Source: a phage. From it: 64,000 bases of DNA. Each line of letters starts with the position of its first letter. The stretch's first letter is position 1. The stretch lies in assembly GCA_025284135.1 (NCBI GenBank), contig GCA_025284135.1_3646.1, one strand, 5' to 3'. The position numbers and the translations under genes are program-made. Positions 44,801 to 58,004 of the stretch are shown here, piece after piece. The notes below the pieces were generated by a model. That model did not search any database. It was not told the origin of the DNA and saw only the letters and a list, made by a program, of their open reading frames with translations.

Positions 44801-47463
44801 TGCTGAGATCAAACATGGATGGGACATCCATGTCTATGCAAGTTCCAGTAACAAACGGGTACAAACGTGTTGTGATGATCATTAAGTGCGACTTAATAGG
44901 TAAGCAAGTTCTTGCAGAAAACGGAACCTCAACACATTTATTCGAGACTGCTCTGCATTATCAGTTTGCTGATTCACCTTTTGCAGGGGATAAGAGAATA
45001 TCTGATACAGACAATGCTCGATGCAAGAAATTTATGCTTGGTGGTGGATGGTGGTGGTATGAATTTGATTTAACAGACAAATTCACTGACACGTCTAAAG
45101 TGGTGACAGGGCTTCGTCTAGATCTTGGCGAAAACATGCACAAAAGTGTTTGTGATGGCACCTACGGTGACCCAACAATCTACTTAAAGTATGTTTCTTT
45201 TGAGCACCCAGAGGATGTCGTTTATGGTCCAAAACTGAGACTGTTTGGCAATTGGATTGCTAAAGACAGGGCAGGTATGGGTAAAAAGGTAAGAGGGTTC
45301 TTAGTGGATGCAGGAACAGAAGACATGTTGGTTAATGCAGTGTGGCCTGAATTACCGGGAACTCAGTGGGACAACTCTGCTAAATCTATAAACTGGTTCA
45401 ACATTCACAGAGCTATGTGGACAACTAACTGCTACCTGTGGAAAGAGTTGAATGACGGCGCTTTCGGGTTTACAGGTGGCAGAAGAATGGCAATCATCTG
45501 CTGGACAACGCTGCAAAGATGTTATGACCATGACTACGAGATTGGAGGTAGGGCATGGAAAAATATTAGAGATAGAATCATAACTAACTTCGCAGACCCT
45601 AATGGTGGTGGAGCGTATGGCTTCGACTGCAGCAGGCTCATCCATTTGAACGGGTCCTCTGCATATAAGAAAGAGGGTTACTCTGGGTCCATGATTGAGT
45701 GGGGTCTGGTGAAAGATGCTCGCGTATTGATGGGTCAACAACTTGCTGCTGCAATAGGACCGAACGCAGTACAATCTGTTAAACCAGCGTGGTTCGATAT
45801 CCCATTATGGTCCTCTGGAACACCAGGAACTGCTGTGATCAACCCTACCACTGGGGATCTGGAAATCTCTTGGGAGGACTTGAAGCAGGTCGGTGGTTGG
45901 GACAAAACAGGGTATCAGGTTCAATGGTGGAGGGCTGATGGATCTTTAGCCGCTGATGAGTTTGTTAGGGACAATTTCTACACCATGTCCTCTGCAAAAG
46001 CACAACAACTGTTCGGTCAGGCTACCCCGTCAACGATCACCATGTCCATGTGCTGTAAAGACAACAGGACTGGAGCTTTGGGGCCAAGGGTTGCTAAAGT
46101 TTTCTCAGGTATCAAATGGAATCTTCCTGTTCAAAGTGTTGCATGGAAGCAAATAGGTGATAACAAGCTGCTGGTTACTCCTGCTTGTCAGTTCAACGCA
46201 ACTCTTAACGTTGATCCTGCTGTTGCGGCAAACTCAGCTAAAGCTTCTGACTTCTCTGTGTCTAACACTGCTATGGCAGATGTGAGGAAGATTGACACGC
46301 TGAACGCCAGAATTACCTGTAAAAACACTTATGGCACATTCCAGATCATCAACAACTTCACAGACGCGGACTCTAAGGTAGTGAGGACAGCAAGCCAGAC
46401 TCTGAGTTTAGGAACTCTGGCCTATGCGGCCCTGATCACTGAACAGTCAGCAACACTCCAAGGGGGTGGTGTAGGCAAGTCCATTACAACACCTGTGTGG
46501 AAGCCAAATGAGTGGGTTGTGTTTGATTTGACTGTAGACTTCTCCAGCGATAATAACTGGACATGGGTAAGGAATTGTTTGTCACAGTTGATGGGCGGTC
46601 CAAGCTCCATTAGCGATAGTCACGACTCTACTGACCCGAGTGTGTTCCAGGTAGGCAAAACTCACCCGGAGACTGGAGCAACGTTGCCTGACAGGAAGTA
46701 TGCTTTGGTTTGCATCTCTTACGGGAAGGCAGATGTCACCTTCTCAGGGACACACACTTATAACGGAACCTACAATTTCTCAAGGAAGTATAGTCTCAAA
46801 GCGGGAAACATTGTAGACGAGGTTGGTGTGCTGTATAATCCTGGCAACGGCATAGGGATTGTGGGTGGTAAACTGCAGATGCAGGAACCTTCTATTACCC
46901 CTTCCAATGTGTCTGGGATTAGAAAGACTTGGGAAAGCAGTAATACCAACATTGCAACAGTGGATGCTACCACAGGGCTGGTAACATTTAAAGCTACTGG
47001 GAATGTCACCATAAAGTTTGTAGTTACTGATGATGCAGGGCGCAAAACGTCTTCAACATCGTTTACTGTCAGACAGATGGCACCTCAGTGGTTTATTTGG
47101 GAAGGAAATCCTCTTGACGGGACTTACCCTAGACCTGCAGGAACGTCCAATATGAGGGTCTTTACCGGTCCGGTCATGGACAATCCGACCACAACCACCA
47201 ACCCTACATTTTTTGGTGCTTACATACCTGAAATTATTGGCCTACCAAGGAACCAGATACAACTGCTTTTCGGAGCAGGTGTTGATGGCCTAGCCACTTT
47301 TGGGTACAGTGACAACATCGATGCAGCCAGAAGCTCGGGTTGGATTGGATTTAAGTTCCAGTGGAACCCTGGTGGTAGAACATTAGGTCTTGCAAGCATA
47401 GGTGTTATGCTACCTGGTAACCAGCAATACCATCTCGAAGCTTATACAAACTTCCCTAGTTAA
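41839..47463 (+). CDS. giant structural protein (1874 aa) with RCC1-like repeats and C-terminal Ig-like (Big_2-like) domain; probable adhesin/fibre
   Basis: N-terminal repeated Gly-rich blades (ITGYNKFGECRTGD, LYGSGNNTYGSLHVD, FYGQDVWGDDTWR) resembling RCC1/beta-propeller repeats; C-terminal SNVSGIRKTWESSNTNIATVDATTGLVTFKATGNVTIKFVVTDDAGRKTSSTSFTV resembles bacterial Ig-like group 2 domains; last gene of the plus-strand structural block. Confidence 0.45.
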   Translation: MLPIPLLKLGRHFLDKRGGIKELAVLSYPIDNSDGTSTTVSYVNSLAILFDDGQLNITGYNKFGECRTGDRNPINYPSETAWNVDHVWRADRAFVIRTFDNQFFYIGCTAGLIGSDAAGGNDVCVREWTPLPEQIVKGLHLDTHPERLVEVMGGINNTVWVIAEAEGTGILNLYGSGNNTYGSLHVDKNQHATPVKIGETSENPETGPWKNPSINCEVHDNSVIFGGPRGFWIAGYDFLRNNSRNDLVWPPVQITRNDLRGIPADEEWKGFMCGPNGAIIATQRMHTPNDQQLVNVFYGQDVWGDDTWRSLNITYTHEVIMARGYGTSGIFFNNGTKQYRGFSRNLCNDIGAQSANNSPRANFIHYRALATAKYVEQRLPVSWTESVYFQGIHREGFLGTFTVVNGKLWWSGIPRGSFAGSNNLFGGRLNSQGFTEVPENWYKNVPVDSWGVDDIFDVNGVSSVSNIYIGDTVKMKLKPQPEGATFIIDKIELVNAAGTVVTDANYQFSTNWNHGGANEVVVTQYNRNVNRRGLYSVKITYHDKHGTGRTHTTRTLNWNTIVPAYPSNGKWHTVGRNKQFHVNNTVYFGLNGAQPVVEGDTAYMVRLHRMDAGSATYDVTQEIYDQRRNTYNNLVQTQAVWEFNPNGRGGKMLQVNEQNGTSLTVHEHPDPWRDPGKPNPGARTLKIVSHDVGYFGIRWEATVRYADGTTNNIGITLGGTSEDNSLKIAYTPRGISIDSMDVVRNGYGDVNVKVTLGEHLGGERIIMYAFDHDPRTNGTYADQAWSYLISAPEPNTKEFYYGMKRDVCKKTGTHDWIAICVKDERTAWDEPVNRWFIGIPARSDKYVEEYIVCMGGTNLNLCWNEDANKYSDYDYMRDYSCNQWFNQPGYADRQARVNPAIFTDTQVFLTKQANEVQTFKNKYDPNKWFYNCYGAFFWGPGELPNGGSCFEAATYASDRFMGQVKKYKIIPGPETLGNAVDPYIVMTVLRSNMDGTSMSMQVPVTNGYKRVVMIIKCDLIGKQVLAENGTSTHLFETALHYQFADSPFAGDKRISDTDNARCKKFMLGGGWWWYEFDLTDKFTDTSKVVTGLRLDLGENMHKSVCDGTYGDPTIYLKYVSFEHPEDVVYGPKLRLFGNWIAKDRAGMGKKVRGFLVDAGTEDMLVNAVWPELPGTQWDNSAKSINWFNIHRAMWTTNCYLWKELNDGAFGFTGGRRMAIICWTTLQRCYDHDYEIGGRAWKNIRDRIITNFADPNGGGAYGFDCSRLIHLNGSSAYKKEGYSGSMIEWGLVKDARVLMGQQLAAAIGPNAVQSVKPAWFDIPLWSSGTPGTAVINPTTGDLEISWEDLKQVGGWDKTGYQVQWWRADGSLAADEFVRDNFYTMSSAKAQQLFGQATPSTITMSMCCKDNRTGALGPRVAKVFSGIKWNLPVQSVAWKQIGDNKLLVTPACQFNATLNVDPAVAANSAKASDFSVSNTAMADVRKIDTLNARITCKNTYGTFQIINNFTDADSKVVRTASQTLSLGTLAYAALITEQSATLQGGGVGKSITTPVWKPNEWVVFDLTVDFSSDNNWTWVRNCLSQLMGGPSSISDSHDSTDPSVFQVGKTHPETGATLPDRKYALVCISYGKADVTFSGTHTYNGTYNFSRKYSLKAGNIVDEVGVLYNPGNGIGIVGGKLQMQEPSITPSNVSGIRKTWESSNTNIATVDATTGLVTFKATGNVTIKFVVTDDAGRKTSSTSFTVRQMAPQWFIWEGNPLDGTYPRPAGTSNMRVFTGPVMDNPTTTTNPTFFGAYIPEIIGLPRNQIQLLFGAGVDGLATFGYSDNIDAARSSGWIGFKFQWNPGGRTLGLASIGVMLPGNQQYHLEAYTNFPS

Positions 47464-47473
47464 CAGGAGGCAA

Positions 47474-47506
47474 ATAAAAAGGGGCCGTTTGGCCCCTTTC
47501 TTTTTA
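47474..47506. terminator. bidirectional intrinsic terminator between convergent transcription units
   Basis: GGGGCC-GTTT-GGCCCC hairpin flanked by A-run upstream and T-run downstream. Confidence 0.8.
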
Positions 47507-47509
47507 TAA

Positions 47510-47710
47510 TTAGTAATATTCCCAACACGACCCATCTTCAGACGGCTGGACACGCTTACCTTCATGATCGACATAGGTGTAACCACAGCCTTCACAGATA
47601 ACAGGTGCCGCGTAACCTTCCTTCCACTGCTTCTCCGTGATCAGTCCTTTCAGATCTCCGCAGTCACGACCAAACAACTCTTCAGAGCAATCTTTACAAA
47701 AATCAGCCAT
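47510..47710 (-). CDS. small zinc-ribbon protein
   Basis: 66 aa; two CxxC pairs (CKDC ... CEGC); GAGGA SD. Confidence 0.45.
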   Translation of the reverse strand: MADFCKDCSEELFGRDCGDLKGLITEKQWKEGYAAPVICEGCGYTYVDHEGKRVQPSEDGSCWEYY

Positions 47711-47713
47711 TTC

Positions 47714-48121
47714 TCAGTCCTCGCATTTAACAAATTTTTCTACAGATCCGCCAAGCACAGCTTGTTGCTTGATGGCACTTCCTTCATCATAGTGGATAGA
47801 TTTATGCTCCGTTCCACCAAACTTCCCTGTGTGGAAGGTGTGCACCCAAATCTCTTTGGGAAGGGATTTATTCTCTTCTTCCACCAACTCCCACATTCCC
47901 CATAGGTGATCTGTGATATCTCTGATGAAATATCCCTCGCCGAGGTTTGTATTCACACTATAGGCCGATTCGTGAACTGGGTGAGTATAACGGAAGGCAG
48001 TGTACTCTTTTCCCGGTGTGAAGTGGGTATCCATTAGTATAGCTGTTAAAGAATAAGGGTCTCGAAAGCCCAAGAACTTTAGTTTAACAATTTCGACATT
48101 CACACTTGCAAGATTCTCCAT
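47714..48121 (-). CDS. hypothetical protein (135 aa)
   Basis: ORF with compact spacing in minus-strand operon; His-rich (HTFHTGKFGGTEH) but no assignable motif. Confidence 0.4.
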   Translation of the reverse strand: MENLASVNVEIVKLKFLGFRDPYSLTAILMDTHFTPGKEYTAFRYTHPVHESAYSVNTNLGEGYFIRDITDHLWGMWELVEEENKSLPKEIWVHTFHTGKFGGTEHKSIHYDEGSAIKQQAVLGGSVEKFVKCED

Positions 48122-48150
48122 GACAGTCTCCTCTGTTCGGTTGGTGAGAT

Positions 48151-48179
48151 AATCCTATACAAATCTGGTATTGGTGTCA
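48151..48179 (-). promoter_or_regulatory. candidate sigma70-type promoter on minus strand (TTGACA-N17-TAGGAT)
   Basis: Read on minus strand in the 164-nt gap upstream of gene 47714-48121; -10 is weak. Confidence 0.3.
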
Positions 48180-48257
48180 AGCTTAATTTTAAGAGATCTG
48201 AGATGGTATTTTATTCAGGAAGGCAATCGCACAGGGTGTGGCAATTTATGAAGGCAC

Positions 48258-48275
48258 AGGCCTCTTTTGAGGCCT
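48258..48275. other. perfect 7-bp hairpin AGGCCTC-TTTT-GAGGCCT in intergenic gap
   Basis: Seen directly; no adjacent U-run on either strand, so not a canonical terminator. Confidence 0.3.
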
Positions 48276-48284
48276 TAAAATCGA

Positions 48285-48665
48285 TTATGACACTTTGACG
48301 TAGCGCTCTGACAGAGCTGGAAAGCCAAAAGCAGTACCTATACTGCCGTATGCTACCCACCATTGAAGTTCATCGTGACACCATTTTCCGATCAGGAAGA
48401 TGCTGGGGTATCGGGTCAGTATTTTGGCATAAGCTTTAGGGTCTGCATCTTCTGGGATAATGATACTTGGAACATCTTTGTTATGACCACAGCAGCAGTT
48501 TAGAGTTTTCAATCCTGCCGCCCATAGACTCATGATAGGCTTAGCCATGCACTTATCAAGGCACACACGTTTTTTGCCGTCACGGAGCTTTTTAGGCACA
48601 TCAACGATAACATTTTGATGCTTGGCACCTTTCACTTTCCAATTATAGGATTTACACTTGCACAT
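48285..48665 (-). CDS. Cys-rich putative zinc-binding protein (nuclease-like?)
   Basis: 126 aa; CKCK...C-x3-C...CCCGHN cysteine/histidine clusters; family not identifiable by eye. Confidence 0.4.
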   Translation of the reverse strand: MCKCKSYNWKVKGAKHQNVIVDVPKKLRDGKKRVCLDKCMAKPIMSLWAAGLKTLNCCCGHNKDVPSIIIPEDADPKAYAKILTRYPSIFLIGKWCHDELQWWVAYGSIGTAFGFPALSERYVKVS

Positions 48666-48686
48666 TTAATCAGTCTCCATCTAGAA

Positions 48687-48866
48687 AGCAATACTTTACT
48701 TAAAATCTTTGTCACCTATTACGATTGCACGAATCCACTCATTGTGATGTTCGATGGCGGTAAGGTGCAACATAATGCAGTGATTGTCATTACCAAACAC
48801 GGTGCGGTAAGCTTTAGCAGCACCATGATATAACTTCCACATCAGGTAATGATATCTTCGCCTCAT
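48687..48866 (-). CDS. small ORF (59 aa), below the track length cutoff
   Basis: My own translation of the minus strand: MRRRYHYLMWKLYHGAAKAYRTVFGNDNHCIMLHLTAIEHHNEWIRAIVIGDKDFK; start ATG overlaps the stop of upstream gene (ATGA), suggesting translational coupling; fills an otherwise 198-nt gap. Confidence 0.3.
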
Positions 48867-49342
48867 GGCTCTTTCTCCGGTTCAGGATCTGGGTAATCTT
48901 CAATAATAAAAGGCCATCCATTACGCTTTGCTTCAGACTTATACTTAATCTCCTTCATTGCAAACTCTAATTGATTCTTAGCCGGAATACATGCCGGAGA
49001 ATCATCAATCCAGATATCTGGGTAGATATCAAACTGCGCCAGATAGGCTGCCTTCTGAACACCTCCAGTATAAAACACACCAACATCAAGCTCCTTGCGC
49101 CAATACTCAATGTCTACATTGTCTTGAGTAATGAATCGGAAAGTCACAAGGTAGACTGCCCACCCCTCCTTCTTCAGATCTCTGATCAGGCGGGAGAAGA
49201 TGAAAGGACTCGCATTAAATGTTCCATCAAAGTCAATGGCAATGATGTGCGTTCCGTGGCGAGTCTCATATGGATTGCTTGTGGTAAGATTGCTGTAGTT
49301 AAAAGGGACCTCTTCCCCGCAGTAGCTGTAGTCCATATTCAC
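48863..49342 (-). CDS. HAD-superfamily phosphatase (putative nucleotidase/phosphoesterase)
   Basis: 159 aa; HAD motif I DxDGT in HIIAIDFDGTFN; additional downstream Asp-rich motifs (IWIDDSP). Confidence 0.55.
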   Translation of the reverse strand: MNMDYSYCGEEVPFNYSNLTTSNPYETRHGTHIIAIDFDGTFNASPFIFSRLIRDLKKEGWAVYLVTFRFITQDNVDIEYWRKELDVGVFYTGGVQKAAYLAQFDIYPDIWIDDSPACIPAKNQLEFAMKEIKYKSEAKRNGWPFIIEDYPDPEPEKEP

Positions 49343-49614
49343 ACCTTCTCGTTGATAAATTTACGGGCGGTTTGGTGAGTTGTTTCTGCTGTCTTCAGAA
49401 TGATATTAATTTTATCGTCAAGATCATTCATCTCAGCAGTTAATTCAGGAATCTCCCCGGCATGCATGGTGAAATCATACATAGACATGCCCAGGATCTC
49501 ATTGATTCGGCGGTTGCATTCTGCAGCACGTTGGTTCATTTTCCAAGCTAACACCAGAGCCTCTTGCGTAGCCTCCAGTGCAAAGTCTAATACGTCGGCT
49601 TCTTCTTTCGTCAT
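49339..49614 (-). CDS. hypothetical acidic protein (91 aa)
   Basis: ORF with tight operon spacing; no motif. Confidence 0.4.
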   Translation of the reverse strand: MTKEEADVLDFALEATQEALVLAWKMNQRAAECNRRINEILGMSMYDFTMHAGEIPELTAEMNDLDDKINIILKTAETTHQTARKFINEKV

Positions 49615-49669
49615 CTCAGTCTCTCTTGTTGTATTGTTAGTAGGTGCATGAACACCTTATATCTTACTT

Positions 49670-50236
49670 TTATTCAAACTGCAATAGCAAGTCCACCACC
49701 GCACTAGGCCTGTCAACAAATTCCCCAGGCCCACATGCCCATAGAGGGTATCCATCAACATACCGCCATATCCAACCTGCAGTGTGAAGTTCAAGCAGGG
49801 CAGTGCCGTCCTTACTGTCAACCACCCTTTCCCACAGTGTTGGGCAGCGAAGCTTGAGAATCGGGTCCCCGCCCTTATACCCATCCATGTAGATACCCAT
49901 TGCAAAGTTCAGCATCATCTTTTTGTGCACTGATCTCTTATTGAGAGTGCTCATCACTTCCTCTTTGTGAATGTTTGTAAGCTTCTCTCTGGCTACCCGC
50001 AGATCGTTGCAACCATTGTTCAGAAGATCTTCCAGGCACTTGATCCGAAGGTCGTGAATGTCTTTGTCGTGTACCGTTGGCACAGGGTCGTAGCGGTATA
50101 GCACTGTTGATACAAGATTGCTCGGGTGTGGGTCTGACAGCAACCCATAACCCCAATACTCTTCTGTATCTGAAAGGACAAGACACCCAATATCTCTGTC
50201 AAGCTTTCCTGTGTTGTAAGCCACATTGACAGCCAT
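49670..50236 (-). CDS. hypothetical protein (188 aa)
   Basis: ORF in minus-strand operon; no motif recognised. Confidence 0.4.
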   Translation of the reverse strand: MAVNVAYNTGKLDRDIGCLVLSDTEEYWGYGLLSDPHPSNLVSTVLYRYDPVPTVHDKDIHDLRIKCLEDLLNNGCNDLRVAREKLTNIHKEEVMSTLNKRSVHKKMMLNFAMGIYMDGYKGGDPILKLRCPTLWERVVDSKDGTALLELHTAGWIWRYVDGYPLWACGPGEFVDRPSAVVDLLLQFE

Positions 50237-50238
50237 GG

Positions 50239-50484
50239 CTATAGCTCCACTAGCAAAGTGCTTTCAAAGTGCCGTTCATGCAAACCGTTGTAAGGGACCA
50301 CTTCTACAACGCCATCACGGACATATGGGGCCATCATGGTGGTATAATCTCCAAACGGGTTGGTATTGTCACTAACCACAACCACCTTCTGCCCTTCCTT
50401 GGCAGAGTGCCAAATAGATCTGCACTTCATCAGGTGTTCGAGAGCTCCAGGTAAAATTTTGTTACGTTCTTTACGGGTCTTCAT
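50239..50484 (-). CDS. hypothetical protein (81 aa)
   Basis: ORF with tight operon spacing. Confidence 0.4.
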   Translation of the reverse strand: MKTRKERNKILPGALEHLMKCRSIWHSAKEGQKVVVVSDNTNPFGDYTTMMAPYVRDGVVEVVPYNGLHERHFESTLLVEL

Positions 50485-50930
50485 AACAGATATAGCTCCT
50501 TATGAAAGTGGTCTTTTAATTTCTCACTGAGAAACTTCTTGATACCTTCCTCTAAAGTGTTTTCGATGTAGTCCAGCTTAACTGCCTCGATGGACATATC
50601 ATAGATCGCCAGCTCTAAGCTGTCAAGTCCCATCATAGCATGAACCATAAGATTTTCATCTTCAGATACATTCAGGGGACTCCCTATAACATCTGTAGGT
50701 AGGATAGTTTCCCAATTATTCTGGGGGGTAGTTCTCCCGCCATCCACTTTACGGCGCAGTTCGAAGGTGTTTTTAGTGTAGAACACTTCATAGGAAACGA
50801 TACGACTGTCGCTCTCATAATAAACGAAGTTCAGGTAGGAGCCTAGCCGCAGTCGGCAAACTTCTACCCCAAACCATTGTTTCTTATAAGAATTCAGGCT
50901 AATGCTGTCGCATTCACGCTTGCTCAACAC
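50481..50930 (-). CDS. hypothetical protein (149 aa)
   Basis: ORF overlapping neighbour by 4 nt. Confidence 0.4.
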   Translation of the reverse strand: MLSKRECDSISLNSYKKQWFGVEVCRLRLGSYLNFVYYESDSRIVSYEVFYTKNTFELRRKVDGGRTTPQNNWETILPTDVIGSPLNVSEDENLMVHAMMGLDSLELAIYDMSIEAVKLDYIENTLEEGIKKFLSEKLKDHFHKELYLL

Positions 50931-50946
50931 GGCTATCTCCTTTTTG

Positions 50947-51180
50947 TTAATCTTCGTAAATCAGGATTTCTGCTTTAGGTTTTCGTGCTTTCAGGTCCAG
51001 CTCTATCCAGTGCACCATAGCTGTTTCAAGAAAAACAGCTTGGATGCATCCGTCCTCAGCGTGCCCCACCAACATAACAAGATCTTCACATTCGTCATCT
51101 GCATCACGAACATACAGAATCTCTCCAGATTCAAAGTCTTTCACAACCTGATTGCTGGATAATTTACGAATTTTTGCCAT
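50947..51180 (-). CDS. hypothetical acidic protein (77 aa)
   Basis: ORF; net negative charge. Confidence 0.4.
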   Translation of the reverse strand: MAKIRKLSSNQVVKDFESGEILYVRDADDECEDLVMLVGHAEDGCIQAVFLETAMVHWIELDLKARKPKAEILIYED

Positions 51181-51181
51181 A

Positions 51182-51445
51182 TCAGAAACCCTCTAAAAAG
51201 CTCTTGTAGAAAATAATTTCAGTGTCCACACCTGTCACGATCTTATCGTTTCGGATCTCATCTGTGAGGTAGGTATCGAAACGTAGTACTTGTGTGGTAT
51301 TGTCACACATCCACTCAGCTGTGACCATTGCGAAAATCTTAGCATCTTCATTATCTGGTGTGAATGTTACCACCTCGCCGCACTTAAACTTTTCGATAGG
51401 TTGAGTGTTAGCTTTCGGTTCTGCGATAGTGATTTTCGTGGTCAT
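51182..51445 (-). CDS. hypothetical protein (87 aa)
   Basis: ORF with 1-nt spacing to neighbours. Confidence 0.4.
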   Translation of the reverse strand: MTTKITIAEPKANTQPIEKFKCGEVVTFTPDNEDAKIFAMVTAEWMCDNTTQVLRFDTYLTDEIRNDKIVTGVDTEIIFYKSFLEGF

Positions 51446-51711
51446 TACTCTTCCTCCATAGTTTCACCAAATACTTCGATACGAGCATCGAGCTCGGTTG
51501 CTTTCAGCTCCCCAACAAAATCTTTTAGTTCTTTCTCGTCCAGATCGTAAGCCCACACACAAGAAGAACATGCAGATTTCACAATCAGCAGAGTAGATAC
51601 CTGTCCTGACTCTGTAATCAGGCTCACAACAGTTCCCACAGGGAACGTGTTGAGAGCTTTTTTAACCGGGCGCTCAGCTTTAATTACTACCTCTGTTGCC
51701 ATAAATAACAC
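51445..51711 (-). CDS. hypothetical acidic protein (88 aa)
   Basis: ORF; acidic C-terminus (GETMEEE). Confidence 0.4.
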   Translation of the reverse strand: MLFMATEVVIKAERPVKKALNTFPVGTVVSLITESGQVSTLLIVKSACSSCVWAYDLDEKELKDFVGELKATELDARIEVFGETMEEE

Positions 51712-51717
51712 CCTTTC

Positions 51718-53199
51718 TTACTTAGCGTACTCGATTAATTCCACAGTTTTCCCAAAGCTCGGGATATAATTTTTATTATACCCTTCGGTGAGAACCCACA
51801 AAGTATCGTACTTTTTCCACTTGTTGTCAACAGCCTTTTGTTCAAAGTTATGCTCAAAGTATAGGTCGGTCAGGACGATGACATCTTTTGCATTCGGTAT
51901 GTTGGCATCCAAATACTCGAACACGCAAGCAGCTGTTGTGCCCCATGTTGAGTGGACCTCATAGTTGATCATCTCGTCTATGTTGCCGCGAGTATATACT
52001 TTAACCTCTCCGACTTCAGTTGACCAACAGAACATTGTAACCTTAAACTCTTTATACAGGTTGCACAATCCGGTGATTTCATTGAACATTTTCTTTAAAG
52101 TTCTTTGAGAGATCGAGCCAGAAACGTCTAAAGCCACCACAATATCTATAGTGTTTTCCGGATTACGACCCGGAACAATAACGTGTTGGTTCTTGTTTAT
52201 AGCTCCAACTTTTCGCATTGTGCTGGTCAAAGACCCAGATCGGCGACCAGGTTTTCTGTAGGTCAGTTCGGCCTTTCGTTTAGACAACATGCGTTGCTTG
52301 ATGATGTCTATATAATTGATTACAGGCTTACCTCTGTTCTTGACAAACTCACGAACCGCCTCAGGGCAACGACCTCCGGAAGCTTGCATTGCTGCCTCCA
52401 GCATGTCACCAGAGTCCTGCATGGCCTGATCTTTATCAGATTGGCTGATTACAGGTTGTGGCTGATCATACCCCATAGCCTTTCCAAGATCATCACTAGT
52501 GCCACCGTTCCCACTCATGTGATCATCGGTTTGTCGCTTATCACCTTGAGAGTTCTCACCTTTACCGTTCTTACTTTTACCGTTATTTTGATCTCTTTGC
52601 TTATCAAGAACTGCATAAACGTTCTCAGCAATCCATCCATGAAACTTCATGTCGCAGTAGCAGCTGGCTAAGAAGCCAAAAGGCTTACCTTTTACGAACG
52701 TAGTGCTTTTCCCTTTTGGGAAGAAAACACAAGGAGGCTTGCTAAAGTCAACCACAAGGCCTGTGTTGATGACGTGATCACAAGCAATGTTGAACAGTTC
52801 CGGTTCAAAGCTTTTACCACGGACCAGGTGATCACAGATAATATGTCCCACCTCATGTGACAGAAGAAAGGCCACCTCTTTCACAGATTTGGGGGAATAG
52901 AAAACCTCAGCCATCTCAAACTGCCCGTCAGTTAGAGAAGCCTTAAGAATAGCCTTGCGTTCATCAGCCAACCCCATAATGAACTCAGGACTGTAATAGA
53001 TGCGTTTATGGTCGGTTGCCATGGTGGAGCACCATGTGTGGTTTTCTACGAACTGCAACCCTGACAGTAGCGTGCCATAAAACGGCAGCTTTTCAAGAAG
53101 ATACATACGTGCAGCTTGCAACATTCTCAGGGCATCATCTTTCTGTGAGGCAATGATTTCTGAACTTCTGCTATCCATTAAAACTCCAGAAGGGGCCAT
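51718..53199 (-). CDS. putative zinc metallopeptidase domain + von Willebrand factor A (vWA) domain protein (DUF2201-like)
   Basis: 493 aa; HExxH motif in LLSHEVGHIICDH with downstream ACDHVINTGL; C-terminal vWA-like MIDAS motif DxSGS in VVALDVSGSIS; more likely start is the second in-frame ATG at 53178 (GGAG SD) because the first ATG sits inside a GC hairpin. Confidence 0.65.
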   Translation of the reverse strand: MAPSGVLMDSRSSEIIASQKDDALRMLQAARMYLLEKLPFYGTLLSGLQFVENHTWCSTMATDHKRIYYSPEFIMGLADERKAILKASLTDGQFEMAEVFYSPKSVKEVAFLLSHEVGHIICDHLVRGKSFEPELFNIACDHVINTGLVVDFSKPPCVFFPKGKSTTFVKGKPFGFLASCYCDMKFHGWIAENVYAVLDKQRDQNNGKSKNGKGENSQGDKRQTDDHMSGNGGTSDDLGKAMGYDQPQPVISQSDKDQAMQDSGDMLEAAMQASGGRCPEAVREFVKNRGKPVINYIDIIKQRMLSKRKAELTYRKPGRRSGSLTSTMRKVGAINKNQHVIVPGRNPENTIDIVVALDVSGSISQRTLKKMFNEITGLCNLYKEFKVTMFCWSTEVGEVKVYTRGNIDEMINYEVHSTWGTTAACVFEYLDANIPNAKDVIVLTDLYFEHNFEQKAVDNKWKKYDTLWVLTEGYNKNYIPSFGKTVELIEYAK

Positions 53200-53211
53200 T
53201 GGCCCCTGTCA

Positions 53212-54255
53212 TTATTTAACGTGTTTGAAAATACCTGCCAACTCGGTCATTGTCATGCGGGTGGTCTTCATAAGATCTGTCATAGCTTTCTCCATAATTG
53301 GAGATACTACCATAAAGTTTCCTTTAGTGAAACCTTTATTCCAGTCGGTCACCAACAGTGGTTTAAGTCCAGCTCCGAGACGTTCACCAGTTAAAGCACA
53401 GCATTTGCGAATATACGAACTCTTAAATTGGCTGAACGACAGATCAACTTTCATACCTGCATCGTAGAACGTTTGACAATAGAAAGTGTAAGCCTTAGCA
53501 ATCTCAACATCATCAGGCAGTGCAGGAACTTCTTCTGCAATACCCTCTTCGACCTCCTGAGGATCTTTTTCCTCTTCAGAGTTCTGTTCTTCAATTTCTT
53601 CTGTCACAGTCTCGTTTACGATGTCTGAAATGTGTTTGTTGGCTGCACGATCAGCCATGAAATTTTTAAAGTCCTGCATTGGTGACATATCTTCCTCCTC
53701 TTCGTCAAATAGTGCTAGTTTATCTTCTTCTGTCCCGTATTGCAAGATGAAATCTTCAAAAGTATAATCACCTTTCAATTTCTCCATACGCTCTTCGCTC
53801 AGGTGGAGCATCATCTGCTGGACAATTTTTCGATCAGTTTTGTCTTTTATCAAGATTGCAGTCTTTTTATCTACCAGACAGTCCTTCAGAGCGTTGCACC
53901 TCAATCCCACCACACAACAATTATCAATTGAGTAAGGACCTTCATCATCTATCCGCTCCAGAGATGGATAGAAAGGATTTCCCAGCCCGTTTTCATCTGT
54001 GTGCATGTCAAAAGGTATAAGGGTGTAATCGCACACTCCATCTCCTAAAAGTTTTTTACCAAATAGGAGGTATTCTTCCCATGACAGGTTGAACTCTATA
54101 TCCCGTTTCCGTGCATTATTCTGTTTGCGTCTATATTTTTTGAGCAGGCGCTCTAACTCTTCTGGTGTATAATATTTTTCAAGATTCATGAGTTGTCTCT
54201 TGTGCTCTGTAGGTGAAGAAATCTTATCAAGTGCCTCAACAGATGTCAACCTCAA
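53212..54255 (-). CDS. HNH-like endonuclease candidate with acidic central linker
   Basis: 347 aa; segment SLERIDDEGPYSIDNCCVVGLRCNALKD resembles the R/H-I-D...N...CN-x-x-K core of HNH/His-Me finger nucleases; track start is TTG, so the true start is uncertain. Confidence 0.3.
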   Translation of the reverse strand: MRLTSVEALDKISSPTEHKRQLMNLEKYYTPEELERLLKKYRRKQNNARKRDIEFNLSWEEYLLFGKKLLGDGVCDYTLIPFDMHTDENGLGNPFYPSLERIDDEGPYSIDNCCVVGLRCNALKDCLVDKKTAILIKDKTDRKIVQQMMLHLSEERMEKLKGDYTFEDFILQYGTEEDKLALFDEEEEDMSPMQDFKNFMADRAANKHISDIVNETVTEEIEEQNSEEEKDPQEVEEGIAEEVPALPDDVEIAKAYTFYCQTFYDAGMKVDLSFSQFKSSYIRKCCALTGERLGAGLKPLLVTDWNKGFTKGNFMVVSPIMEKAMTDLMKTTRMTMTELAGIFKHVK

Positions 54256-54262
54256 AAACGTG

Positions 54263-54291
54263 TTGACTTTACCCTAAATCCACGATATAGT
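54263..54291 (+). promoter_or_regulatory. sigma70-type promoter (TTGACT-N17-TATAGT) in divergent intergenic region
   Basis: Hexamers with 17-nt spacer; lies inside the track-predicted 5' extension of ORF 54290, supporting the downstream ATG 54332 as the start. Confidence 0.5.
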
Positions 54292-56550: not shown

Positions 56551-56820
56551 ATGTTATACCAGCAATATGAACTTCGTGCAGAAAAAGAGTTAAATTTTGA
56601 CAAAGATATTCACAGATATTATTATGGGAAAGTTAGAGGGCAAGCAAGAAAGTGTACTCCAACACTCTTTTATGCCAGCAGACGACTAGCGCCAGAAGAG
56701 GCAACAGCAGAAAGGGTTGCGTACAACTGGAGAGTCACGTATGATATTGACAGATCCGATGTGATATCTGTTTTGGAAAACTTTGAAAACACTTACACAC
56801 AAGTAGAGGACTTTTACTAA
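56551..56820 (+). CDS. hypothetical protein (89 aa)
   Basis: ORF immediately upstream of and overlapping the AAA+ ATPase start. Confidence 0.4.
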   Translation: MLYQQYELRAEKELNFDKDIHRYYYGKVRGQARKCTPTLFYASRRLAPEEATAERVAYNWRVTYDIDRSDVISVLENFENTYTQVEDFY

Positions 56821-58004
56821 TGTCAAGAAACGTATTTGAAAGTGGTCAAATCACTGTCCGTGAGTTGCCAGCTATCATTCAGTTTGCCCAGCGTCATAAC
56901 CGATCTGTCCTGATTTTAGGACCAATGGGCGTGGGAAAGAGCCGGGTGATGAAGCAGATCGCAGACAATATGTTCGGTGAGCGAGATGACAACTTGGTTG
57001 ACGTGCGGTTGTCAGATAAAGATCCTGCCGACTTATCTGGGCTACCTATCCCTGTAGAAGCGGATGGAACTACACGTACAGTGTTTGCAATTCCAGAATT
57101 TTGGCCTGCGGATCCTGACTGGAGCGGAATTATCTTTCTGGATGAGCTCACTCATGCAGATAACTACCTGCAAAAGGTTGCAATGCAAATTATGCTCGAC
57201 CACAAGTGCGGTACCTATGCATTCCCTAAAGGTTCTGTTTTTGTGGCTGCTGGTAACCGTTCTACAGATGGTGCGGTTCTTTCGGCGCTCGAAGCCCCTC
57301 TGGCTAACCGTTTTATCATTGTAGAAGTTACAAGCAATGCAGAGGTGTTTATTGAGGACTACGCATTCCTTAATGGGGTGCATTCCTCTGTAATTGGATA
57401 TCTGAAAAGAGTTCCATCAGCTATCGATAATTATGAGGCTATGGCTGAGATTAATTGTCCATCTTTTGCCACACCGCGATCTTGGGTTGCTGCATCTGAT
57501 ATCTTGCACGATTTTGACAGCGGCATTATTTCTGACGCTATGGCCCGTGTTCTTCTGCAAGGTGCTATTGGTCACACTGCAGCGGTAGAGATCTGGACTT
57601 ACCACACCAAGAAACGCAACTTACCGGAAATCGGTCGGATTATGGCAGGAGGTTGCAAAGAATATGTAGGTCCTAAACAGCCAGACATCTTGTGGATTCT
57701 TGGATCTGAAGGTTGTATCGCTATTCGTAATATGATGGAAAATGCAAGTATCTCCGACGAAGATCTTGTTAGCTGTGTGGCAAACTTCCTCGATTTCCTT
57801 TGGGGAAACTTCAAGGATGAGAACCGAGATTTTGTATTCTCAGTCTTTATGGCGATGATGAAACCTAATGCCTTAGGAAATGCCTTGCTTATCGGTAAAG
57901 GTCGTGACAAGATTGTTGCTCAGCTGATCAAAGCATACCCAAACCTGATGAAGATTGTAAAAGAGTTTGGTGAAGAGTTTAGCGCCATTTTGGCTAAAGC
58001 TTAA
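56820..58004 (+). CDS. AAA+ ATPase, MoxR/AAA_5-like
   Basis: 394 aa; Walker A GPMGVGKS, Walker B IIFLDEL, sensor-like AAGNRSTDG; domain order typical of MoxR/CbbQ/CobS-type ATPases. Confidence 0.75.
   Translation: MSRNVFESGQITVRELPAIIQFAQRHNRSVLILGPMGVGKSRVMKQIADNMFGERDDNLVDVRLSDKDPADLSGLPIPVEADGTTRTVFAIPEFWPADPDWSGIIFLDELTHADNYLQKVAMQIMLDHKCGTYAFPKGSVFVAAGNRSTDGAVLSALEAPLANRFIIVEVTSNAEVFIEDYAFLNGVHSSVIGYLKRVPSAIDNYEAMAEINCPSFATPRSWVAASDILHDFDSGIISDAMARVLLQGAIGHTAAVEIWTYHTKKRNLPEIGRIMAGGCKEYVGPKQPDILWILGSEGCIAIRNMMENASISDEDLVSCVANFLDFLWGNFKDENRDFVFSVFMAMMKPNALGNALLIGKGRDKIVAQLIKAYPNLMKIVKEFGEEFSAILAKA

What the first reader, a model, noticed from the sequence alone, without database searches (positions are those of the whole stretch)
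47510..51711. Minus-strand operon of eleven small proteins of unknown function plus a HAD phosphatase
It is convergent with the structural operon and insulated by a bidirectional terminator. It contains a zinc-ribbon protein, a Cys-rich CKCK...CCCGHN protein, a DxDGT HAD phosphatase and several acidic 77-190 aa proteins with tight or overlapping gene junctions. This is typical of early host-takeover cassettes, where new toxin-like or anti-defence functions are often found. Nothing here could be assigned by eye, making it a candidate reservoir of undescribed functions.
Basis: partly seen in the sequence, partly recalled or inferred. Interest (0 to 1): 0.5.

Follow-up and report, generated by a model that had tools for sequence, protein, structure and literature searches.

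The report
Known rV5-phage block of unassigned genes
This is the already published, well-conserved block of small non-structural genes (rV5 genes 14-26) of an rV5-like E. coli phage; all twelve are real genes and one is a minimal HAD-type phosphatase, but none has a demonstrated function.

Summary
Twelve tightly packed minus-strand genes lie at 47510-51711 and end at a bidirectional terminator facing the tail-fibre gene.

The window is a Vequintavirus (rV5-like coliphage). At least 113 GenBank phage records carry this block at 90-97% identity, nearly all calling the genes "hypothetical". The 2013 rV5 paper already described it as part of transcription unit 11-26, with the same terminator pair and a promoter.

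All twelve ORFs are under purifying selection (pN/pS 0.01-0.19). The operon starts further upstream (~54249), with an Srd-like gene and a DUF2201 metallopeptidase/VWA gene.

The HAD call is supported. Catalytic motifs I-IV are the best-conserved positions in 107 diverse homologues of a family of 930 clusters with no Pfam model. The zinc-ribbon call is supported too: four Cys are invariant in the rV5-, T5- and Felix O1-like representatives aligned.

The Cys-rich protein stays unresolved. Two genes (g88, g87) are diverged tandem paralogues.

The "early host-takeover" reading is plausible: sigma-70-type promoters, no late-promoter motif, no membrane segments, no virion evidence. It is untested, and no toxin or anti-defence similarity was found.

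Verdict: an ordinary, already catalogued block of unknowns; low to moderate interest.

The parts
47473..47508 (.). Bidirectional rho-independent terminator (rV5 t026/t027) between the tail-fibre gene and g66
   Evidence: 9-bp stem with 6 G-C pairs at 47478-47499, A-run upstream and T-run downstream; same element published for rV5.
47510..47710 (-). g66 (rV5 gp26): 66-aa acidic zinc-ribbon protein
   Evidence: C5, C8, C39, C42 invariant in Vequintavirus, T5-like and Felix O1-like homologues; homologues in 836 phage records, all those listed hypothetical. phrog_2210. pN/pS 0.13.
47714..48121 (-). g135 (rV5 gp25): 135-aa two-module protein, function unknown
   Evidence: residues 13-82 match a 72-aa alternative allele in some Vequintavirus genomes; residues 91-135 match small proteins of other phages, including some that the rV5 paper links to phage RTP; replaced by two genes in phage bov25_3. 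pN/pS 0.14.
48152..48180 (-). Internal sigma-70-type promoter (rV5 P025) ahead of g135-g66
   Evidence: TTGACA-17-TAGGAT, 10 of 12; published as P025. Sequence read.
48258..48275 (-). Hairpin just after the g126 stop (AGGCCTC-AAAA-GAGGCCT); possible weak terminator or RNA-processing site
   Evidence: Read directly. No T-run follows, so its function is not established.
48285..48665 (-). g126 (rV5 gp24): 126-aa basic Cys-rich protein, fold unresolved
48696..48866 (-). g56 (rV5 gp22): 56-aa basic protein, function unknown
   Evidence: phrog_12006. 55% identical homologue in the same position in L008. pN/pS 0.19.
48863..49342 (-). g159 (rV5 gp21): capless mini-HAD phosphatase-like protein (likely start ATG 49336)
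   Evidence: D37xD39xT41, T67, K97 and D113D114 are conserved across 107 homologues; 930 cluster representatives. Rossmann-like model with HAD-type structural neighbours. No Pfam model matches.
49339..49614 (-). g91 (rV5 gp20): 91-aa acidic protein, function unknown
   Evidence: phrog_12604. 47% identical homologue in L008. pN/pS 0.03. Only sub-threshold coiled-coil-type Pfam hits, so a helical fold is a guess.
49670..50236 (-). g188 (rV5 gp19): 188-aa protein, function unknown
   Evidence: phrog_12232. Two tandem paralogues (194 and 157 aa) in the related contig L008. pN/pS 0.04.
50239..50484 (-). g81 (rV5 gp18): 81-aa protein, function unknown
   Evidence: phrog_4868. 43-45% identical homologue in L008. 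pN/pS 0.07.
50481..50930 (-). g149 (rV5 gp17): 149-aa protein found near the DUF2201 gene in related genera
   Evidence: homologues directly after the DUF2201 gene in Seunavirus and one gene further on in L008. phrog_6790 is labelled 'tail protein', and deposited names conflict ('tail protein', 'putative holin'). No membrane segment. Not flagged as a virion protein in rV5.
50947..51180 (-). g77 (rV5 gp16): 77-aa acidic protein, function unknown
   Evidence: phrog_12046. pN/pS 0.14. Only a weak, non-significant profile match to the g88 family (probability 10%).
51182..51445 (-). g87 (rV5 gp15): 87-aa acidic protein, distant paralogue of g88, extremely conserved
   Evidence: 96 synonymous against 2 nonsynonymous changes; hhalign against the g88 family gives probability 91%, E 1.2e-6, over 74 columns.
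51445..51711 (-). g88 (rV5 gp14; likely start ATG 51702): 85-88-aa acidic protein of a family whose copy number varies
   Evidence: phage HeinrichReichert carries two diverged copies (37-42% identity) at this position; an L008 homologue is 35% identical.
51802..51830 (-). Promoter-like site ahead of the small-gene block, inside the 3' end of the DUF2201 gene
   Evidence: TTGACA-17-GATACT, 10 of 12; a 12-of-12 consensus promoter at the equivalent place in L008. Consensus match only.
51718..53199 (-).
   Evidence: PF13203 E 2.7e-28 and PF09967 E 3.6e-11, both above the gathering score; homologues in 637 phage records.
53212..54189 (-). About 325-aa acidic protein with an Srd-like / HNH-like N-terminal domain (rV5 gp11); first gene of the operon
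   Evidence: phrog_3118 E 2.4e-110, phrog_4592 'decoy of host sigma70' E 3.5e-13, phrog_1400 'Srd anti-sigma factor' E 5.7e-9; the rV5 paper calls gp11 a probable Srd homologue. Start as annotated in phage AlexBoehm.
54221..54249 (-). Operon promoter (rV5 P011), divergent from a plus-strand promoter at 54263-54291
   Evidence: TTGACA-17-TAAGAT with an extended -10 TG; bidirectional promoters published between rV5 genes 10 and 11.

Best explanation
The region is the distal two-thirds of a roughly 6.7-kb non-structural operon of a Vequintavirus (rV5 genes 11-26).

Proposed transcription (inferred). Host sigma-70 RNA polymerase reads it from a promoter at about 54249, and from internal promoters at about 51830 and 48180. 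Transcription ends at a bidirectional terminator shared with the convergent late tail-fibre gene.

Products. An Srd-like protein and a DUF2201 metallopeptidase/VWA protein come first. Twelve small soluble cytoplasmic proteins follow. They do not appear to be virion parts, and most likely act inside the infected cell before or alongside replication.

g159. It is a capless (C0) HAD-type phosphohydrolase. By analogy with the superfamily, it should use Asp37 as the nucleophile to form an aspartyl-phosphate intermediate, with Mg2+ held by Asp37, Asp39 and Asp113/114. With no cap domain, its substrate is more likely a nucleic-acid end, a phosphoprotein or a nucleotide bound by an oligomer than a small free metabolite.

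Other products. g66 is a four-Cys zinc ribbon shared with T5-like and Felix O1-like phages. g88 and g87 are diverged tandem paralogues. The remaining proteins are lineage-restricted, probably binders of host or phage factors.

Shown: gene reality, operon anatomy, conservation tiers, HAD motifs, zinc-ribbon cysteines.
Inferred: expression timing, intracellular role, HAD substrate class.
For: - Identity and prior description: 122 phage records match, 113 over at least 80% of the query, at 90-97% identity. The rV5 paper gives transcription unit 11-26, terminators t026/t027 and promoters P011 and P025.
- Real genes: pN/pS 0.01-0.19 for all twelve.
- Operon anatomy.
- Non-late expression: sigma-70-type promoters here and in a diverged relative. 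The late motif TGGTAAAATA is enriched (18 hits against 5.9 expected); 16 hits lie on the structural strand and none within 47510-53200 on the minus strand.
- Not structural: no membrane segments. The rV5 gene table flags mass-spectrometry evidence for other proteins but none of gp13-26.
- Conservation tiers: g149 and g159 occur across the subfamily; g88, g81, g188, g91 and g56 also occur in a nearer relative; g87, g77, g126, g135 and g66 are genus-restricted or mobile.
Against: - No expression, toxicity or binding data exist for any of the twelve proteins.
- The rV5 authors note that sigma-70-like promoters occur throughout the genome, including before late genes. Promoter type alone therefore does not prove early timing.
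- Promoter-like sites in the region are only modestly above shuffled expectation: 22 against 15.4 +/- 3.9.
- No curated HAD model matches g159.
- I read the virion evidence from the summary gene table only, not from the full mass-spectrometry file.
Confidence: 0.7

Rival explanations
1. The block is a counter-defence (anti-immunity) island. Several of the small acidic proteins would inhibit host defence systems, and the HAD enzyme would destroy a phosphorylated immune signal or modification.
For: - The proteins are small, acidic and soluble, and sit in a sigma-70-driven block.
- The ends of the block vary within the genus: g135 is replaced by other genes, and the g88 family changes copy number.
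- g66 and the C-terminal module of g135 are shared with unrelated phage groups, as mobile accessory genes often are.
Against: - The central eight genes are strongly conserved and syntenic across the genus (pN/pS 0.01-0.07 for six of them). They do not show the presence/absence pattern typical of anti-defence islands.
- PADLOC gave no hit. That library covers defence proteins, not anti-defence ones, so the test is weak.
- BASEL phenotyping found Vequintavirinae exceptionally sensitive to type II/III restriction and to Fun/Z, and saw no evidence of effective anti-restriction mechanisms.
Confidence: 0.15
2. The genes are morphogenesis helpers (tail-fibre chaperones or assembly factors) or minor virion proteins. 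This is suggested by their position next to the tail-fibre locus and by database labels such as 'tail protein'.
For: - The block lies directly next to the 1874-aa lateral tail-fibre gene.
- phrog_6790 and one GenBank record label g149 'tail protein'.
Against: - The genes are on the opposite strand and separated by a bidirectional terminator.
- The late-promoter motif found throughout the structural module is absent here.
- The rV5 gene table flags no mass-spectrometry evidence for gp13-26.
- In Seunavirus and Mydovirus the g149 and g159 homologues lie among nucleotide-metabolism and small non-structural genes, after the DUF2201 gene, not next to tail genes.
- The labels conflict with each other ('tail protein' against 'putative holin') and carry no stated evidence.
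Confidence: 0.05
3. The block supports nucleic-acid or nucleotide metabolism. g159 would be a 5'-nucleotidase or a 3'-end-healing phosphatase, with neighbouring proteins as partners.
For: - In Seunavirus and Mydovirus the g159 homologue lies directly after a MazG-like pyrophosphatase gene.
- 5 of 107 family members give sub-threshold hits to PF06189 5'-nucleotidase.
- A T5-like phage uses a pre-early deoxyribonucleotide 5'-monophosphatase (Dmp) during takeover.
Against: - All similarity to characterised enzymes is below family thresholds.
- The other eleven proteins show no nucleic-acid-enzyme motifs.
- rV5 already encodes a metallophosphoesterase, a P-loop kinase-like ATPase and an RNA ligase elsewhere in its genome. 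I take these, from general knowledge of RNA repair systems, to be enough for end-healing.
Confidence: 0.1

Closest known systems
Phage rV5 transcription unit genes 11-26 (Kropinski et al. 2013, PMC3606486) and its orthologues in at least 113 Vequintavirus records
   Same: Same genes in the same order (sizes 85/87/77/149/81/188/91/154/56/126/135/66 aa). Same bidirectional terminator pair, the same P011 and P025 promoters, and the same upstream Srd-like and DUF2201 genes.
   Different: Only 3-10% nucleotide divergence. rV5's short overlapping ORFs gp13 and gp23 are not supported as genes here. Some relatives swap g135 or duplicate the g88 family.
HAD superfamily, capless (C0) phosphatases such as the T4 Pnkp phosphatase domain, KdsC, and the uncharacterised PDB entry 2obb
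   Different: No curated HAD model (Pfam, NCBIfam) recognises g159. It belongs to a separate, unnamed family of about 100-aa cores with an extra invariant Arg69 and Trp111. It also has a 30-aa N-terminal and a 40-aa acidic, Pro-rich C-terminal extension. Its substrate is unknown.
[quoted passage not shown]
   Same: Sigma-70-type promoters, many small soluble proteins, tight translational coupling, genus-restricted content, and a phosphatase among them. T5-like phages have the pre-early 5'-monophosphatase Dmp.
   Different: Timing, host shut-off and toxicity are demonstrated for T5-like phages but untested here. No sequence similarity to any characterised takeover protein was found within the twelve genes.
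T4 Srd (described as a decoy of host sigma factors) and MoxR-associated DUF2201 VWA/metallopeptidase proteins
   Same: The two genes that head the operon match these families. A 394-aa ORF at 56820-58004 in the divergent operon has the size and position of rV5 gp4, the MoxR ATPase.
   Different: The Srd-like protein is about three times the length I recall for T4 Srd and has a long acidic C-terminal region. No functional link to the twelve small genes is shown.

Membership tests
HAD superfamily phosphohydrolase (g159) | Motif I, DxDx(T/V), at the end of the first core strand (nucleophile Asp and general acid/base Asp+2) | tested here: met
   D37-F-D39-G-T41 follows strand 33-37 of the model. 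D37 and D39 are invariant and T41 at least 90% conserved in 107 homologues.
HAD superfamily phosphohydrolase (g159) | Motif II (Ser/Thr at the end of strand 2), motif III (Lys) and motif IV (DD or DxxxD after strand 4), in that order | tested here: met
   T67 ends strand 62-67. K97 is invariant. D113 and D114 follow strand 110-112 and are at least 90% conserved.
HAD superfamily phosphohydrolase (g159) | Rossmannoid alpha/beta core fold with HAD proteins as closest structural neighbours | tested here: inconclusive
HAD superfamily phosphohydrolase (g159) | Match to a curated HAD family model above threshold | tested here: not met
   No Pfam or NCBIfam hit. Only sub-threshold PF06189 hits in 5 of 107 relatives. 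The PDB profile hit to 2obb has E 0.015. This is a failure of library coverage and does not contradict the motifs.
HAD superfamily phosphohydrolase (g159) | Mg2+-dependent phosphoryl transfer through an aspartyl-phosphate intermediate | not testable with these tools
   Needs an enzyme assay.
Zinc ribbon (g66) | Two CxxC knuckles, conserved among homologues | tested here: met
   C5xxC8 and C39xxC42 are invariant across Vequintavirus, T5-like and Felix O1-like homologues. C17 and C62 are not conserved. Fold and metal binding were not tested.
Early host-takeover gene cassette | Transcribed by unmodified host RNA polymerase from sigma-70 promoters, and not from the phage's late promoters | tested here: inconclusive
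   Consensus-like promoters lie at 54249, 51830 and 48180, and at equivalent places in L008. The late motif is absent from the block. These are sequence matches only, and such promoters occur throughout the rV5 genome.
Early host-takeover gene cassette | Expressed in the first minutes of infection; products inhibit or redirect host functions or are toxic when expressed alone | not testable with these tools
   No Vequintavirus transcriptome or expression screen was found in the paper library.
Virion / tail protein (database label on g149) | Detected in purified particles, or homologous to a protein of known virion location | tested here: not met
   The rV5 gene table gives no mass-spectrometry evidence for gp17. 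No PDB or Pfam relative was found. Deposited names conflict.
Known defence-system proteins (PADLOC) | Profile match to a defence-system component | tested here: not met
   Zero hits for the ten proteins tested. No anti-defence protein library was available.

The most novel reading that the evidence does not exclude
At least one of the unassigned proteins is a new kind of inhibitor of a host process or defence. Three candidates stand out: the g66 zinc ribbon shared by 836 phage records spanning rV5-, T5- and Felix O1-like phages; the almost invariant g87 with its copy-number-variable paralogue g88; and the Cys-rich g126 that travels with the Srd-like gene. Alternatively, the mini-HAD family may remove a phosphate from a macromolecular or signalling substrate not yet known to be targeted by phages.
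Probability: 0.3. Interest if true: 0.55.

Novelty: already known. Interest (0 to 1): 0.25.

Why it matters
Vequintaviruses are abundant, broad-host-range coliphages often proposed for biocontrol and therapy, yet this block remains functionally blank after more than a decade.

This analysis orders the unknowns for experiments:
- A catalytically intact mini-HAD belonging to a family of 930 clusters that no curated library covers.
- A zinc-ribbon protein shared by three unrelated groups of virulent enterobacterial phages.
- A near-invariant 87-aa protein with a copy-number-variable paralogue.

Functions for these would transfer to hundreds of phage genomes. As a genome-scan finding, however, it adds no new kind of system.

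Tried and rejected
- Curated libraries: Pfam, NCBIfam and PADLOC scans of the small proteins gave nothing significant. PHROGs gave only unknown-function families plus one unsupported 'tail protein' label.
- PDB by sequence: searches with g159, g126, g66, g188, g149 and g135, and profile searches with A1 and A2, gave nothing. The deeper A5 profile gave one weak HAD-like hit, 2obb.
- g88, g87 and g77 as three paralogues: BLASTP found nothing. Profile comparison supports g88-g87 but not g77.
- A second mini-HAD copy in the window: none found.
- Source names for mini-HAD relatives: the only names given were 'hypothetical protein'.
- rV5's published P020 promoter has a 21-nt spacer here and did not pass my scan. 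I do not count it.
- AFDB Foldseek was unavailable.
- Literature searches for Vequintavirus transcriptomes or gene-function screens found none.

Full report
**What the window is.** A megablast of 47400-53300 finds 122 phage records, 113 of them covering at least 80% of the query at 90-97% identity. Nearly all are Escherichia myophages of the genus Vequintavirus (rV5-like), and nearly every gene under the match is annotated "hypothetical protein". The annotated maps of phages AlexBoehm (Bas56) and PMBT16 show the same gene order.

The 2013 rV5 genome paper already lists these genes as gp14-gp26, with the same sizes. [quoted passage not shown] It found no function for gp13-26.

**Check of the observation.** Twelve minus-strand ORFs fill 47510-51711: g66, g135, g126, g56, g159, g91, g188, g81, g149, g77, g87 and g88. 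They are separated by small overlaps or gaps of a few bases. The exceptions are a 55-nt gap (g188/g91) and a 163-nt gap (g126/g135).

The terminator is a 9-bp G+C-rich hairpin at 47478-47499, flanked by A- and T-runs. It lies between the stops of the convergent 1874-aa tail-fibre gene and g66.

Nine of the twelve proteins are acidic, two are basic, and none has a membrane segment.

Against six other Vequintavirus genomes, every ORF shows far more synonymous than nonsynonymous change (pooled pN/pS 0.01-0.19). They are therefore real protein-coding genes. g87 is extreme, with 96 synonymous against 2 nonsynonymous differences.

**True extent of the operon.** The same strand continues upstream without a break. 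First comes a 493-aa protein with DUF2201_N (putative metallopeptidase) and DUF2201 (VWA-like) domains, both above Pfam's thresholds. Before it lies a ~325-aa acidic protein whose N-terminal part matches PHROGs annotated as HNH endonuclease, "decoy of host sigma70" and "Srd anti-sigma factor". The rV5 authors called this protein a probable Srd homologue.

A sigma-70-type promoter with an extended -10 lies at 54249-54221, back to back with a plus-strand promoter at 54263-54291. The promoter lies downstream of the TTG that opens the longest ORF, so the ATG at 54189 is the likely start, as annotated in AlexBoehm.

Further promoter-like sites lie at 51830-51802, just ahead of g88, and at 48180-48152, which is the published P025 ahead of g135. 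rV5's P020 has a 21-nt spacer here and I do not count it. A hairpin without a T-run follows the g126 stop.

**Timing.** The late-promoter motif reported for rV5 (TGGTAAAATA) is enriched in the window: 18 matches with at most one mismatch, against 5.9 expected. Sixteen lie on the plus strand within the structural module. None lies on the minus strand within 47510-53200.

A diverged relative (L008) has consensus sigma-70 promoters inside its version of the block, including a 12-of-12 match just ahead of its g88 homologue. This fits early or middle transcription by host polymerase. It is not proof, because the rV5 authors found sigma-70-like promoters throughout the genome. I found no transcriptome for this genus.

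**Conservation tiers.** I anchored on the DUF2201 protein, which has homologues in 637 phage records, and compared the downstream genes.

- In Seunavirus and Mydovirus, only g149 (Seunavirus) and g159 (both genera) are detectable.
- In the nearer metagenomic relative L008 (DUF2201 61% identical), g88, g149, g81, g188 (as two tandem paralogues), g91, g159 and g56 are kept in order. g87, g77, g126, g135 and g66 are replaced by other genes.
- Within the genus, g135 is swapped for two other genes in phage bov25_3. Its N-terminal part also exists as a 72-aa alternative allele, and its C-terminal 45 residues occur in small proteins of other phages.
- Phage HeinrichReichert carries two diverged copies of the g88 family where this window has one.
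- g66 has homologues in 836 phage records, including Felix O1-like phages and T5-like phages, where it sits in the tRNA region. All those listed are hypothetical.
- In contig L006 the g126 homologue lies directly upstream of, and overlapping, the Srd-like gene.

**The HAD protein (g159).** No Pfam, NCBIfam or PDB sequence match exists. An alignment with homologues down to 43% identity keeps D37, D39, T41, T67, K97, D113 and D114 invariant.

An exhaustive profile search found 930 cluster representatives at E <= 0.001. Most are 90-140 aa long and cover query residues 30-120. In an alignment of 107 of them (22-40% identical to g159), the invariant positions are D37, D39, R69, K97 and W111. Those at least 90% conserved are T41, T67, D113, D114 and P116. 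These are the four HAD catalytic motifs plus a few family-specific residues.

I conclude that g159 is a catalytically competent, capless HAD-type phosphatase of an uncurated family. Established knowledge of the superfamily says that capless members usually act on macromolecular substrates or build a cap by oligomerising. Its substrate here is unknown.

**Other proteins.**

- *g66:* the four zinc-ribbon cysteines are invariant across three phage groups.
- *g88 and g87:* they look unrelated by BLASTP. A profile of the g88 family aligns to g87 end to end (probability 91%, E 1.2e-6), so they are diverged tandem paralogues. g77 is not demonstrably related.
- *g149:* database labels conflict ("tail protein", "putative holin"). 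It has no membrane segment, and the rV5 gene table shows no virion evidence for it.
- *Defence-system profiles:* none match.

**Interpretation.** The best-supported reading is a conserved, non-structural operon, probably transcribed by host polymerase. Its small soluble products would act inside the infected cell, and one of them is a phosphatase.

- *A dedicated anti-defence island* is less likely. The core of the block is strongly conserved rather than variable. These phages are also reported to be unusually sensitive to type II/III restriction and to Fun/Z.
- *A morphogenetic role* is unlikely, given the strand, terminator, promoter type and lack of virion evidence.

**Novelty and score.** The feature is real but already published and catalogued, so as a scan finding it is ordinary.

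What this analysis adds:
- the correct operon boundaries;
- proof of coding for all twelve genes;
- a motif-level confirmation of the HAD enzyme and the size of its uncurated family;
- the g88/g87 paralogy;
- a ranking of which unknowns are core and which are mobile.

Interest is low to moderate (0.25). The residual upside is that one of these widely shared small proteins proves to be a new host-directed effector.

Noticed in passing
window 51182-51711; L012 5137-5663; L008 7011-7262: g88 and g87 are diverged tandem paralogues (hhalign probability 91%). The family changes copy number between closely related phages: HeinrichReichert has two g88-like copies plus g87. g87 itself is almost invariant at the protein level.
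   Followed up: partly
L006 10001-11418: In a 119-kb metagenomic contig of a related phage, the homologue of the Cys-rich g126 lies immediately upstream of the Srd-like gene and overlaps it by 4 nt. In this window the two genes are about 5 kb apart. This may hint at a functional link.
   Followed up: no
window 51718-53199 and 56820-58004: The DUF2201 VWA/metallopeptidase gene lies in the minus-strand operon. A 394-aa ORF with the size and position of rV5 gp4 (the MoxR ATPase) lies in the divergent plus-strand operon. The presumed MoxR-VWA pair would then be split across a bidirectional promoter region. I did not scan the 394-aa ORF itself.
   Followed up: no
GenBank MG0656xx records (hits H1, H2, H4-H9): Sixteen records named 'Campylobacter phage' with host Campylobacter jejuni are 96-97% identical to this E. 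coli Vequintavirus region. The host labels in those unannotated records look doubtful.
   Followed up: no
window 8850, 12372, 26527, 32344 (+ strand): Exact copies of the rV5 late-promoter motif TGGTAAAATA occur in the structural module. Overall the motif is three times more frequent than in shuffles and almost entirely strand-specific.
   Followed up: partly
L008 11055-12377 and 12895-14052: The diverged relative replaces g126, g135 and g66 with a different set. This includes a 440-aa coiled-coil protein with a C-terminal region that looks like an outer-membrane anchor, and several small proteins with hydrophobic segments. The distal end of the operon therefore appears to be a swap-in site for accessory genes.
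   Followed up: no
L014 (phage V18) 1681-2152 and 3463-3762: In phage V18 the HAD gene is not annotated and the g149 homologue is annotated as truncated, although the DNA is 95-96% identical. These are probably frameshift or sequencing errors in that record rather than true gene loss.
   Followed up: no
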